Below are positions 4,401 to 56,000 of a stretch of DNA of 64,000 nucleotides, in pieces. Positions within the stretch are counted from its first letter, which is position 1. Every line of letters starts with the position of its first letter. Position numbers and translations under genes: made by a program. Below the pieces are notes generated by a model. The model was not told the DNA's origin and did no database searches. It saw nothing but the letters and a program-made list of their open reading frames with translations. This DNA comes from Octopus sinensis. Taxonomy: Eukaryota. Location: contig NC_043012.1 in NCBI RefSeq assembly GCF_006345805.1, positions 53,630,001 to 53,694,000 of the forward strand, given 5' to 3'.

Positions 4401-7400
4401 AGAAAACTCGGTTTGTATGAACATTCCATCTACGTGAACCCTGGTCAACCTGTTGAAGATGTAAAAATACAAGTCTATATAGAAGAATCTAAAGAAATTC
4501 GTATCTTGAGGGTACCACCTTTACGTTCAACTGATCCAACATTCACTGACGCGACACCAGAATCAAGTGAGTATTATCTTGCGAACGTTCTGTGGGCAAG
4601 AGGGAGTTCATTTTTGTTAACTTCTCTAGTATATACATACTTAGAATGATCATAATTCTTCCGTATGTAACAACAATTTTAAGTATAAATATTATCATGG
4701 GGGTACTGTACATAAAAGACATTTATAATATCTCATTTTAAACCAGAAAATTCTATAGGGTTATTAAAAGACTATTGAATTTTTCGCTATGTATATGTGT
4801 GAGATCAGGAGAAAAATTATCTCATCTGAGTTTCTTATGAGCATAAATCAGTACTAACGGACTCTGTGTTTGAGATGTCTGCGAGTAAACCGATAGCGCT
4901 ACTCCAGAGTCGTACTCTAATATGTGAAAAATTCTGGTTGAACAAAATGATAATACGAATGCATCATAAAATATCCATAAATTACTTATTCATAAGCAGA
5001 CAAAGAATGCTAAATTCACTTAAGTGACTATTATTTTATATCAAAATTTTCATCGCACAAATTACGATCATCTGACGTGATATCACCGCTTCAATGTTTT
5101 GTGACGTATTATAGTGTGTGTGTGTGTGTGTGTGTGTGTGTTGTGTGTGTGTGTTGTGTGTGGGTGTGTGTATGGGTGTGTGTGTGGTGTGTGTTGTGTG
5201 TGTGTGTTGTGTGTGGGTGTGTGTATGGGTGTGTGTGTGGGTGTGTGTTGTGGAGGGATCTTGACCACCGCCACGTGACTGAAAGTGGACTGATGCATTT
5301 GAATAATAATAAAGAAACTGTTTCAACCGAGAGTAGTTTACAGTAAGAGTTGACAGTGGTACTTGATTGCATTGATCGTCCGTATGGTTTACTGTATTAC
5401 TTTAATAACTTTACGTTTGGAATAGAATGGATTGCTTTCTGTGTGAACATATTTACTCTGCGAAAGTCACATTCTATATAACCATATCCAAATATCTATT
5501 TGGGCAATGCTATTCTTACACACTTATGCACAACTCCCAACATAGCAGGATGCATGTATGCATTTATATATATATATATATATAAACAAAGATAAATGCG
5601 ATACAATAAAATTAATTATAATCGCCGGTGTACCAGTACACGCCATATATTATACATATATCATTACATTCAAGGCGAAGAGTGCACTAGATACACAATA
5701 GCTGGATAAATTTAGTGAGATGAAAATTAAAAACTTTTACAAACTTAACTTTTCTTATACTGCAGTTTCGCCAAATTCAGTAATAAAAATAGTATTTATT
5801 TACTCAGGCTGGCTCTTCAGTAAGATTCCTGTTAATGATGGGAAGACCATATCAATAGACCCATGTGCGTCTATCGAAATGCTCATTCTAAACTATTCAA
5901 AACACTGCGCAGACTCAGAACAAACCCGACAAAATAGGGGATTGTGGTATATCGTCTAACGGTCAGAAATTTATCGAGAGAATATGTAAACAAAGATAAA
6001 TGCGATACAATAAAATTAATTATAATCGCCGGTGTACCAGTACACGCCATTGGCTACTATTTCCATCAGACCGACCAAAAATTTGCTTGGCGTCATTCTC
6101 TGTTACAAATATAATTTCGACATTTCATTAAAATATTCGGAAACAATAAAGTTTTCGCGAAATTTCGTTAACAGCGACCAATCCAGACGCAACAATTTCG
6201 CGCCCTTCAATAAAGACAGCTGAAATTACATACGTACCATCAGACACTGGAACTCTGGATGGTATTTTTGAAATCAAGTATGATATAGACCGACGCAAAC
6301 AGTTCAATGGTGATATATTGGTAAGTGAAATTTGCCTTATATTTTAATTCTGCACTCACATTGTTATTACAGTATATGTTCTCACGGCTACACACACACA
6401 CACACACATGTATATATATTATATATATATATATATATATATATATATATATATACTAGCAGTATCGCCCGGCGTTGCTCGGGTTTGTAAGGGAAATAAC
6501 TATATAAGCATTTTTAGAGAGTTATAGCCAAAAAATAGCAAAAAATGCATTAAAAATGGAAAAAATATGATGGTAAATTTTTTGAAAAATCGTTGACTCA
6601 TCGTAGACATTTTTAGAGAGTTACTTCCCTTATATAATAGCGAAAAAATGCATTAAAAATGGAAAAAAAACGATGGTAAATTTTTTTTAAATCGTAGACT
6701 CATGTAGACGCTTTCTTAGCCATTTCTGTTTTGGTGTCTTCAAGCCATGAAGTCGTTGTTCTAAAAGAACGCTGGTCTCCTTGACAACGCTTTACGACGT
6801 ATTTCCTTACACTCCCTTCCCCACAGCTTCACGAGGGAGGGGAGAAGCAAACAGGTGCAGGTGTGACCATGGACGCCAACTCCGCCGCCATCGACACACG
6901 AAAAATTATGTTAATTATTTTTAAAATCGTAGCTCATCGTAGACGCGCGCTAATACTCAGACGGGCTCGATATAAATCACGACTATAAGCTACCCGAATT
7001 TGGTTAACTGCACCGCAAAATGTGGGAGTAGTTAGAATCTAAATCGAAGGGGACAGACACTCACACAACTACAGTTTTATATATAAGATATACATAGCGC
7101 AGTAGTGGTGAGAATGTGACAGCAAAGAAAAGCATACATTCACTCTCTGCATGCAATTAGACTCGGAAAGTTCGTGAGGAACCCATTGACCCAATTTGCT
7201 GACTTTTCCGATAGCACACAGGTCTCAATGAATGGTTGAATGACCAATCCAAGCTTCTCTGCTAGTTCCCCTCAACAGTTACGATGATATTTGTTTCCAC
7301 CAGGGTTTTCAGGATGTCCTTGTCGAGTTCTCACAGATCTTTCAGGATGAGGCTCGTCTTCTAGGCTGTTCAATATAGCTTTGAAAAAAATAGCTGTTAA

Positions 7401-53000: not shown

Positions 53001-56000
53001 ATCATTTATATACACGCACTCACACACTCATGTGTATATACATGTGTGTGTAGGTGTATGCGTCCGCACGCGTGCAGTGATACATCAAATTGATATAGAC
53101 AAAGAACATATTAAAATGTTATTTAAGAATAGAAATAAGAAATATATGAAATATAAAATATATATGAAAGATTTACATGAAGAAATATATATTGAACAAT
53201 AAAAGGTTTGATATGTGGAGTTATTAATGATATGTGGAGCGATTAAAGACAACCTTATCAAAATTGAAAAAAATAAAGATTTAGAAATATAAGTTGGAGA
53301 TTAAAATTTATATTAACGGCAGTGAGAAACCTTAATGAGGAATTTAAAATTCTGTAAAGTAAGAAAAATAAAGAAATTCGTTTTAAGAGTCCTAAAAATA
53401 TATGTAGATGGCTATAACAACAGGTACGTTTCAAATACATCTTACCTGCTGTTATAACACTCTACATATATTTTTAGGACTCTTAAAACAAATTTATTTC
53501 TCTTATTTTTCAGACTTTTAAATTCTCATGATATATTGTCTAATATTTGATTTCCAACATTTAATTCTAAATTTTTTAAATTTAATAAGGTCAATCGCTT
53601 AATCACTCCACATATCGAACATTTTCTTGCTTATTTTATATTTTTCATGTGTAATTTTCATGTATATTCGTATGTTTCTTATTTCTATTCTTAAATAATA
53701 CTTTAATATATTCGTTGTCTTAATGTATTTGCTGTATAAACGCATGTAAAAAATACAAGATGTTTACCTAATTTTTGTTTCTCCATTAAATCATTATTTA
53801 CTATATATGTATATATATATATGTATTTATATATATATATATATATATATATATATATATGTGTGTGTGTTGGTGTGTGTGTGTATGTATGTATGTATTT
53901 ATGCATATATATATATATATGCATGTATTTATGCATATATGTGTGTGTGTGTGTGTGTGTGTGTGTATATATATACATATATGCATAAATACATATCTTC
54001 CCTGGCAGGCTGTGAATGGCTATTTTGTCCACTTCTTTGCACCGTCTGATCTGGAAACAATCCCCAAGGACATTCTTTTTATATTGGACACAAGCAGCTC
54101 GATGAGGGGACGTAAACTCAAACAATTGAAGCGTGCAATGGAATCTATCATGTATGACTTAGTAGAAGGCGATCGCTTCAACATCATGGATTTTGACACC
54201 AAAATACTTTTCTGGAAACCCTCTCTGCAGTCATGGAATAAAAAAACTGTCAATGATTCTTTGATGTGGGTTAATCAACTAGAATACGATGGAGGTAAGT
54301 TCTGCTTCAGTCCTGCACTATAATAATGATTACACATCACTAGGATGAATGAAGGATATCATCTCTTGCACCTAGCATGTTTTGTCTTGCATCTTTCTGT
54401 TCCTAAAGTCTCAGTCTTTTACTGTCTATGGTCATTCATAATAAGGAGGAGACGCGTGCTTATACTGATGAATTATATGTGGTTATTAACGATTTAAGTC
54501 TATTTTCGGCATATTTGGCATTGGAATTTTTTCTTTTGCCCTTGTTTATAAGTTGCTTATTAATTTATCCTTTAAAGGTATTTTTTAATATGCTGGCCAT
54601 TGATAAAAATTTTTCAAAAATGTTATCCTATATTAGATGTAAATTTAATACCATTCACTTCGGGGCTCTCTCACTCCATGAGAATTTTCAGTCCGATCAC
54701 ACGTGTTTCGAGGTGTGCTGTAGAATTTTTTATTTTGGATATATCTGGGGTACTTAAGTGTACACATGACTTTGTGTCTACTTCTTCCATGGGTGCATGT
54801 AAGTATCTCATTTTATTTCTTATCGTATTTACCGCTGATGACGAGAAAATTGTTTATGAATTAACTCAGAAATCGGGACCGATCGGTAATAACGGAATTT
54901 ATTTAGAAATTTCCGTCGGCTTACTTCGAGACGCGTGCTTATAGTGATGAATGAATTATATGTGGTTATTGACGATTTAAGTCTATTTTCGGCATATTTG
55001 GCATTGGATTTTTTCTGCCCTTGTTTATAAGTTGTTTATAAATTTAGCCTCTAAAGGTACTTTTTAATATGCTGGCCACTGATAAAATTTTTTCGAAAAT
55101 TTTATCCTATATTAGATATATATTATATATATATATAATATATATATATATATATAATATATATATATATATATATATAATATATATATACTATGGACTT
55201 CATTTCAGTTTTCGTCTGGTAAATCTACTCACAGGCTTTGGTTGCCCCTAGGCTATACAAGAACATACTTGCCCAAGGTAACACTCAGTGGAACTGATCC
55301 CGGAACCATGTGGTAGAGATGCAAGCTTGTTACCACACAGGTACTCCTGTGCCTAGTGTACACTTTGTACAGTAGGTGCAGGAGTACTCTATTTAGTACA
55401 CTTTGTAAGCTAAAGTTTTACAACGCCATAATTTACTGATTATGGCCTTGGAAAACTTTAGAGCATAATATTCTTTTGGCTGTATTCTTTTTTAAACGTG
55501 ACTTCTTGTTGATTACTTATATACTGAGCTTCCGTTGGATATTCTTGTTACTATGATGGAAAACGAGGTGAATTGCTATATACATTGTATTACTATCTAT
55601 ATTTTGTATTTTGTTTAACAGGTACTGATATTAATCGCGCGCTTTTAGATGGTCTCGATTTTATGTCATCGAATACAACGTCAGAAGGTCGATCTCCAGT
55701 AATCGTGTTTTTAACTGACGGCGAACCAAACGATGGCGAAATGACCAGAAGTATAATCCTGCACAATGTGGCTGAAGCTAACGGAGAAAAAATTCCTATA
55801 TTTTCTCTGGCTTTTGGTGCCGACGCTGGTTTCTACTTGCTTGAGAGAATATCTCTACAGAACTATGCCGTAGCCCGACAGATCTATGAATCATACAAAC
55901 CTGCCCTCCAGCTGAAGAATTTTTACAACGAAATAGCTGCTGCGTTGATGACAGATGTAAAATTCAAATATTTTGGTAATGTACGTCGATCATAGATTTT

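What the first reader, a model, noticed from the sequence alone, without database searches (positions are those of the whole stretch)
5583..55117. Several unrelated-looking hammerhead units share one grammar, suggesting a (TA)n-targeted ribozyme retroelement system
Seen: three terminally redundant units (periods 404, ~482, 479) each have one hammerhead per unit and (TA)n at the 3' end. The 404 and 482 units share stem I (TCTTA/TAAGA), a TGCA-centred stem III and a downstream GTAAA.GTTTTT(T)AATTTTC motif while otherwise dissimilar. Extra minimal hammerheads lie at 3437, 10611, 11448 and 44193, and a Penelope RT/GIY-YIG relic at 45880-46895. Known: Penelope-like elements carry minimal hammerheads in their pLTRs and are the proposed mobilisers of non-LTR retrozymes. 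Inference: a diversified set of non-autonomous self-cleaving RNAs primed into TA microsatellites by Penelope RT.
Basis: partly seen in the sequence, partly recalled or inferred. Interest (0 to 1): 0.78.

Follow-up and report, generated by a model that had tools for sequence, protein, structure and literature searches.

The report
TA-targeted hammerhead retrozymes in octopus DNA
This stretch of likely octopus DNA holds four different short, protein-free mobile repeats, each carrying a predicted self-cutting RNA (hammerhead) and ending at a TA microsatellite; they are likely passengers copied by Penelope-like jumping genes, a known kind of element whose TA targeting and just-over-one-unit copies make its copying route testable.

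Summary
Four terminally redundant, ORF-less units (periods 404, 432, 482, 479; the 432 one was missed) carry a type I hammerhead motif with a palindromic, dimer-type stem III and end 136-239 nt after the cleavage site at (TA)n. Hammerhead hits far exceed shuffles (6 vs 0.05). 7 of 9 motifs have (TA)5 within 250 nt 3' (background 17%). Public contigs show the whole 482 unit is a large, diverse family; its variants sit at tolerant positions (N7, stem II), none listed in the invariant core. Corrections: only the 404/482 pair shares the downstream motif; the 479 ribozyme lacks one base at the cut; 3437 and 11448 are decayed and lack 3' TA; the Penelope relic is real but unlinked, and its relatives show no TA targeting. 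Best reading: non-autonomous Penelope-derived retrozymes mobilised by a TA-targeting Penelope-like element (Hydra-type hammerheads look closest), copied from a multimeric or circular RNA. The class is published; the octopus families, TA targeting and a possible UA-microhomology priming site were not found in my searches. Cleavage, circles and the partner are untested.

The parts
5585..6050 (-). U404: ORF-less unit, period 404, 62-nt perfect terminal redundancy (1.15 units), in an intron of a VIT/vWA-type gene, antisense
   Evidence: empty paralogous site at 52010
5753..5825 (-). U404 type I hammerhead: stem I TCTTA/TAAGA, core CTGAAGA, 44-nt stem-loop II, palindromic stem III (CTGCAG), predicted cut after 5758
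5722..5740 (-). downstream motif shared with U482
5565..5584 (.). (TA)10 at the 3' end of U404
23527..23990 (+).
23991..24311 (.). interrupted (TA)n tract: 3' flank of U432 and 5' flank of U482
24312..25146 (+). U482: 1.73 units, 98% identical repeats, two hammerheads 481 nt apart; member of a large family; monomer folds at z -4.5
24441..24541 (+). U482 hammerhead a (core 24446, 68-nt stem-loop II, 10-nt self-complementary stem III, cut after 24536); the pair co-folds as a double hammerhead
24922..25022 (+). U482 hammerhead b (core 24927, cut after 25017)
25147..25393 (.). interrupted (TA)n tract at the 3' end of U482
54449..55119 (+). U479: period 479, about 195-nt redundancy at 90% (older), in an intron of the paralogous gene copy
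   Evidence: empty paralogous site at 11278
54829..54889 (+). U479 hammerhead, core 54835; one base short at the cleavage site, so likely inactive in this copy
   Evidence: sequence; not returned by the scan
44153..44416 (+). solo unit with compact hammerhead (44193-44235, stem I CCAC/GTGG, stem III CAATTG), TA on both sides, 185 nt from cut to (TA)n
10538..10744 (+). solo unit between two TA tracts with a minimal hammerhead-like motif (10611-10649, variant core CTGCCGA, stem III ACGT); a more decayed relative lies at 10330-10501
3437..3484 (+). decayed hammerhead, no TA tract within 2 kb
11439..11586 (+). decayed hammerhead region (core 11448) with an inverted 79% partner at 11866-11720; TA tracts lie 5' of both, not 3'
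45898..46900 (-). broken C-terminal-endonuclease Penelope-like ORF (RT thumb, CX4CX2C linker, GIY-YIG), frameshifts and a stop, no hammerhead; not linked to the units

Best explanation
[quoted passage not shown] Inferred cycle: a tandem locus is transcribed; palindromic stem III lets two hammerheads fold as a dimer and would cut out (and possibly allow circularisation of) a 400-480-nt monomer; the protein would nick a (TA)n tract and start cDNA at a fixed internal site 100-240 nt 3' of the cut, possibly helped by a short UA-rich match; copying runs past one full unit on a circular or uncut multimeric template and stops at a variable point, leaving 1.07-1.73-unit inserts, while early stops leave solo units. 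Shown: units, redundancy, motifs, TA adjacency, family size. Inferred: transcription, cleavage, circle, the partner protein, priming.
For: Four independent units with the same layout; motif excess over shuffles and 3' TA bias. No PLE coding remnant in the monomers (longest stop-free frames 59-123 aa; only the relic hits the PLE profile). Empty paralogous sites show U404 and U479 are insertions. In public contigs the whole 482-nt cycle is covered in 29 of 29 bins in 4 of 4 runs (14,174 and 4,338 pieces in the two DNA-type runs) and the head-to-tail joint occurs in 14 and 9 contigs with several variants, so the ORF-less monomer itself is amplified. Listed variants hit N7 (24450, three alleles), restore the stem II base pair (24453 T>A, majority) and include A>G at 24457 with T>C at its partner 24516; none is listed at the invariant core (14 rows hidden; phase unknown). 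The two repeats of U482 are 98% identical and share minority alleles while most family pieces are under 99% alike, as expected from one template. U482 and H44197 co-fold as double hammerheads. A linear cut-to-cut monomer primed 136-239 nt from its 5' end cannot give more than one unit (logic). Published: PLE hammerheads are dimer-type and more-than-unit copying from circles was proposed (PMC4209133); RT starts inside the RNA (PMC11167929); Hydra PLEs have hammerheads and nearly all insert in (TA)n, one family in O. bimaculoides (PMC8557442); their listed hammerheads show long palindromic stems III, an extra unpaired pair at the base of stem II and, in several Hydra magnipapillata families, AAAGTT(G)TTTT just after stem I, as U404 does (by eye).
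Against: No autonomous partner sharing sequence was found: no genome held; the 3' end of Hydra-1_Obim is not the same sequence as any unit by eye; four short U404/U482 motifs gave no relevant hit in the Craig supplement. The loose ends shown include no (TA)n junction (172 rows hidden), so family-wide TA targeting is not shown; it rests on this window. No pile-up of ends at the cut (contigs only). RNA runs are guesses, expression not shown. In the one reconstituted PLE the hammerhead is dispensable and priming is non-homologous (PMC11167929). U479's motif is defective; U404 and U479 monomers fold no better than shuffles (z -1.2, -1.7). Palindromic stem III is not specific to Hydra (PMC4209133).
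Confidence: 0.72

Rival explanations
1. Same origin and mobiliser, but the hammerhead is an inherited passenger: the RT copies uncut tandem transcripts, no monomer or circle is made.
For: Hammerhead mutants did not affect insertion in vitro and no RNA ends were seen at the cut for the anole element (PMC11167929); minimal hammerheads cleave poorly and 8 of 9 Xenopus dimers did not cleave; every copy here spans an uncut site; U479's motif is defective.
Against: Variation across the U482 family avoids the core and keeps stem II; dimer folding is predicted; U482 and U432 monomers are strongly structured. This rival is nested in the best explanation and differs only in the RNA step.
Confidence: 0.4
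2. One-off debris: 5'-truncated or internally deleted copies of autonomous Penelope-like elements (pLTR-ORF-pLTR with the ORF lost locally), not self-propagating families.
For: Solo units (44153-44416, 10538-10744) look exactly like truncated 3' ends; autonomous relatives carry hammerheads 120-190 nt after the ORF; only U482 was tested for family status.
Against: The complete ORF-less cycle of U482, including the spacer between repeats, is deeply and variably represented; no coding remnant in any monomer; four independent deletions giving 404-482-nt periods in 64 kb is unlikely.
Confidence: 0.15
3. Dispersed pieces of hammerhead satellite arrays moved by DNA-level events (unequal crossover, Helitron capture, repair at fragile TA tracts), not by target-primed reverse transcription.
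For: Local amplification by unequal crossover is proposed for retrozyme arrays; the window is rich in Helitron-like elements at TA tracts; TA tracts are dense (17% background).
Against: Polarity: TA lies 3' of the hammerhead strand at a narrow distance in 4 of 4 redundant units on both strands, with unique sequence 5' in 3 of 4; no Helitron ends or terminal inverted repeats seen on the units.
Confidence: 0.08

Closest known systems
Non-LTR retrozymes of animals (Cervera and de la Pena 2020, PMC7229834; Li, Clavereau and Pollet 2026, bioRxiv 10.64898/2026.07.22.740005)
   Same: ORF-less head-to-tail monomers of a few hundred nt with one type I hammerhead, low GC, proposed PLE origin and mobilisation; mussel monomers are 350-390 nt.
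   Different: Here the inserts are dispersed 1.07-1.73-mers with a fixed polarity at (TA)n; stem III is a 6-10-nt palindrome and stem-loop II is 44-68 nt. In the parts I read neither paper reports (TA)n targeting or cephalopods; three of the four inserts have one hammerhead and would fail the preprint's two-unit definition. Circular RNA not shown here.
Hydra-clade Penelope-like elements, incl. Hydra-1_Obim (Craig et al. 2021, PMC8557442)
   Same: (TA)n targets, sense hammerhead about 100-200 nt from the 3' end, long palindromic stem III, T-rich tract after stem I, present in Octopus.
   Different: Hydra elements encode RT-EN; these units encode nothing; no sequence homology to Hydra-1_Obim by eye; listed Hydra stems II are compact.
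Minimal hammerheads of PLE pseudo-LTRs (Cervera and de la Pena 2014, PMC4209133)
   Same: Short stem I, extra base at the 5' end of stem II, palindromic stem III, scattered solos, and pairs 100-700 bp apart on opposite strands (as 11448/11866).
   Different: Those were described as pLTR parts or truncated PLEs, not as ORF-less partial tandems.
Non-autonomous Chlamys elements such as MRC1 (PMC8557442)
   Same: Non-autonomous PLE derivatives forming pLTRs and head-to-tail insertions; clade biased to microsatellites.
   Different: Green algae, (CA)n or (C)n targets, generally no hammerhead, 3' similarity to a known autonomous partner.

Membership tests
Non-LTR retrozyme | type I hammerhead in each monomer | tested here: met
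   U404, U432, U482; U479's copy is one base short
Non-LTR retrozyme | short non-coding monomer without LTR-element features | tested here: met
   404-482 nt, GC 33-38%, no PLE coding remnant; slightly above the 150-450 bp quoted in PMC7229834, within 51-972 bp of the 2026 preprint
Non-LTR retrozyme | head-to-tail tandem organisation with two or more hammerhead units | tested here: inconclusive
   met by U482 (two hammerheads, 1.73 units; joint family-wide); the other three are 1.07-1.4 units; long arrays not testable
Non-LTR retrozyme | self-cleavage and circular RNA in vivo | not testable with these tools
   only assembled contigs were available; RNA status of X10 and X18 is a guess
Penelope-like element (autonomous) | RT plus GIY-YIG ORF | tested here: not met
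   absent from all units; present only in the unlinked relic
Non-autonomous PLE derivative | partial-tandem (pseudo-LTR) structure with hammerhead near the 3' end | tested here: met
Non-autonomous PLE derivative | sequence similarity to the pLTR of an autonomous partner | tested here: inconclusive
   no BLASTN hit of 79 relic-clade loci to the units; no match to Hydra-1_Obim by eye; host genome and Repbase not available
Hydra-clade partner | (TA)n target | tested here: met
   4 of 4 redundant units, 7 of 9 motifs in this window; not shown family-wide
Hydra-clade partner | hammerhead architecture and downstream tract as in Craig File S2 | tested here: inconclusive
   resemblance by eye only; not diagnostic
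Relic as Neptune/Nematis-type PLE | C-terminal GIY-YIG with CX2-5CxxC linker | tested here: met
   CTTDNCMLC before the GIY-YIG core, conserved in relatives; EN looks most like Nematis by eye; no tree built
Rfam hammerhead families | score at gathering threshold | tested here: not met

The most novel reading that the evidence does not exclude
Octopus carries a diversified class of TA-homing circular retrozymes: dimer-activated hammerheads with giant stem II release 400-480-nt circles that a Hydra-type Penelope protein primes at a UA-rich word by microhomology to a nicked (TA)n tract and copies round the circle, so each 1.1-1.7-unit insert is a genomic footprint of rolling-circle target-primed reverse transcription, giving the first direct tie between animal retrozymes and a specific Penelope clade and target.
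Probability: 0.27. Interest if true: 0.72.

Novelty: new variant of a known kind. Interest (0 to 1): 0.47.

Why it matters
How animal retrozymes are mobilised, and what Penelope hammerheads are for, are both open in the papers I read: PLE mobilisation is argued from co-occurrence and pLTR similarity, and the hammerhead was dispensable in the one in vitro system. Dispersed inserts with a fixed 3' end at a Penelope-type target and just over one unit of sequence are the kind of footprint that can decide between circle, uncut multimer and DNA-level amplification, and a young, very abundant family (U482) offers thousands of natural replicates and an easy cleavage assay. These ribozymes escape Rfam, so such families are likely under-annotated. 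The broad class itself is known, which caps the surprise.

Tried and rejected
No whole genome was held, so no genome-wide scan. Rfam found nothing. A first regex missed the long-stem-II motifs. BLASTN among units: only 18-21-nt chance matches; phased global alignment gives z 3.8 for 404/482, 2.4 for 482/479, under 1.6 for the other four pairs. Word-based protein search with the relic thumb: no hit. Relic clade as parent: of 79 loci fetched I scanned the 53 best; 14 have a sense hammerhead after the ORF (about five lineages, so not independent), with 2-4-nt stem III; none of the 14 has (TA)5 downstream, 11 of them with over 200 nt of room; a covariance model from 8 of them gave best E 1.1 in the window. 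An AAAGTTTTTAA tract shared by U404 and one such lineage is not significant (12 of 1000, 35 comparisons). No Hydra-type ORF motif in the window. The depth dip near the cut coincides with an indel at 24540 and is not taken as cleavage. Hit at 12849 and 43041 treated as chance; 61545 (score 16) is doubtful. Earlier-findings look-ups by place, sequence and seven words returned nothing.
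Full report
Setting. The window is AT-rich (35% GC) animal DNA full of microsatellites, with a tandemly duplicated VIT/vWA-type gene (about 700-22600 and 48300-59900; gene type read from the translation, not from a family scan). The best protein hit of the Penelope relic is an Octopus bimaculoides protein (XP_052825841.1), so the host is likely an octopus; this is an inference. 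No genome was held.

Observation. Each monomer holds a type I hammerhead motif. A structure-scored scan returns 6 hits at score 20 or more (24927, 24446, 5820, 44197, 23732, 3441) against a mean of 0.05 in 60 shuffles. 54835, 10616 and 11448 were not returned and are defective or variant on inspection. Rfam misses all of them. The motifs have 3-5-bp stems I, palindromic stems III of 6-10 nt and, in the redundant units, stem-loops II of 27-68 nt. Co-folding two copies of the U482 or 44197 motif gives the double-hammerhead arrangement with an intermolecular stem III. The first (TA)5 lies 173, 192, 136 and 239 nt after the predicted cut in the four units, 185 and 100 nt in the solos at 44197 and 10616; 7 of 9 motifs are within 250 nt against a 16.7% background, and 3 of 9 on the 5' side. 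U482, 44197 and 10616 have TA on both sides of the insert, so the tract is better read as a target than as a tail. 3441 and 11448 do not fit; 11448 has a 79% inverted partner at 11866-11720 with TA tracts outside, like the opposite-strand pairs described in PMC4209133.

Shared grammar. The 60 nt after the cut align significantly for this pair only, 1 of 21 pairs (part of the score is stem I, and some of the 10 of 4000 null hits may be the units themselves). Phased global alignment gives z 3.8. U404 and U482 are therefore probably distant relatives; U432 and U479 share architecture, not sequence.

Insertions and family. The gene duplication gives empty sites: homology with the paralogue stops exactly at the 5' ends of U404 (6051 = 52010) and U479 (54453 = 11278). 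TA-rich tracts lie about 70-90 nt further on in the empty copies, which may mean a small target deletion, but homology there is lost. Twenty of 24 listed runs hold U482 words. Laying four: all 29 bins covered in all four; 14,174 and 4,338 contig pieces in the two DNA-type runs, most under 99% alike; the joint from 24793 back to the unit start in 14, 9, 1 and 0 contigs, with several sequence variants. So the whole ORF-less cycle is amplified; depth is not a copy number. Listed variants include three alleles at N7 (24450), a majority T>A at 24453 that restores the pair closing stem II, and A>G 24457 / T>C 24516 at paired positions (phase unknown; T>C at 24520 would weaken the closing pair unless partnered). 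No variant is listed at the invariant core, but 14 rows were hidden. No (TA)n loose end was among the rows shown (172 hidden), and the RNA label of two runs is a guess. U482 and U432 monomers fold much better than shuffles (z -4.5, -3.8), U404 and U479 do not.

The relic. 45898-46900 (minus) is a broken RT thumb, CX4CX2C linker and GIY-YIG domain (Pfam GIY-YIG only E 0.023; 203 proteins at E 0.001 or better), flanked by Helitron-like sequence (Pif1 2B at 46905-47048) and without a hammerhead. Of 79 related loci I scanned the 53 strongest: 14 have a sense hammerhead after the ORF (12 at 120-188 nt), with tiny stems III, and none of these has (TA)5 downstream. A model of those hammerheads finds nothing significant in the window. 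These relatives come from other hosts, so TA targeting in octopus is not excluded, but the relic shows only that Penelope-like elements occur here.

Mechanism. The layout is that of Penelope-like insertion: fixed 3' end internal to the repeat, variable 5' end, partial tandem. Internal initiation of reverse transcription is shown for an anole element (PMC11167929, main text read). A cut-to-cut linear monomer primed 136-239 nt from its 5' end could give only that much DNA, so inserts of 1.07-1.73 units need a circle, an uncut multimer or a template jump; more-than-unit copying from circles was proposed in PMC4209133 (results and discussion read) and PMC7229834 (results and discussion read). The likeliest partner is a TA-targeting clade. 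Craig et al. (PMC8557442; passages, section 11, supplement parts 2 and 53 and searches) report (TA)n targets for nearly all Hydra families, for Naiads (no canonical hammerhead) and a microsatellite bias in Neptune, list Hydra-1_Obim, and give Hydra hammerheads resembling those here by eye; no sequence identity to the units was seen. One lead: in 3 of 4 units the RNA just past the 3' end matches (TA)4 at 6 of 8 positions (background 3-7% of positions; U482 4 of 8). The start point was chosen by me and n is 4, so this is suggestive only; it would differ from the non-homologous priming of the anole element.

Comparison and verdict. The 2026 preprint (abstract to discussion read; supplements closed) argues that animal retrozymes are non-autonomous PLE derivatives, in 35 genomes with no mollusc. 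The giant squid genome paper only counts 235 Rfam hammerheads (passages). Nine literature searches listed no paper on cephalopod retrozymes or (TA)n-targeted retrozymes; the library lacks most subscription papers, and Repbase and Dfam were not available. The finding is real, works like a retrozyme mobilised by a TA-targeting Penelope-like element, meets the structural tests of non-autonomous PLE derivatives, and lacks proof of cleavage, circles and partner. New variant of a known kind; interest 0.47.

Noticed in passing
window 6456-7096, 9309-10227: Non-autonomous Helitron-like family (TC...CTAG ends, subterminal hairpin, internal 103-nt repeat) abutting (TA)n tracts, present in both orientations; end features read by eye and named from recall.
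   Followed up: no
window 45860-47370: The Penelope relic is nested between a Helitron-like 5' end and a Pif1 helicase fragment: insertion into, or capture by, a Helitron.
   Followed up: partly
window 11439-11866: Two decayed copies of one hammerhead family converge tail to tail with TA tracts on their 5' sides, the reverse of the other units; may be a family whose hammerhead is antisense to the direction of copying.
   Followed up: partly
window 25389-25663 and 40101-40444: Long hairpin inverted repeats (135-nt arms at 97%, 169-nt arms at 85%), MITE-like; the first abuts the TA tract 3' of U482.
   Followed up: no
window 23991-24311 and 25147-25393: The TA tracts flanking U482 are long and interrupted at near-regular 12-20-nt intervals; similar tracts at 13325-13807 and 15663-16104 have no hammerhead.
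   Followed up: no
window 699-22633 vs 48345-59892; 27897-33629 vs 61916-64000: Tandem duplications of a VIT/vWA (inter-alpha-trypsin-inhibitor-like, from recall) gene and of a second segment, 70-85% identical, useful as empty-site controls.
   Followed up: partly
L001-L053 and proteins P0002-P0043: The relic belongs to a widespread marine PLE lineage with a GGAIG-type RT motif B that has no match in the Craig supplement search; EN is Nematis-like; clade placement not tested.
   Followed up: partly
window 61545-61595: Weak hammerhead-like motif (CCGAGGA core, score 16) 97 nt before a short TA run; doubtful.
   Followed up: no
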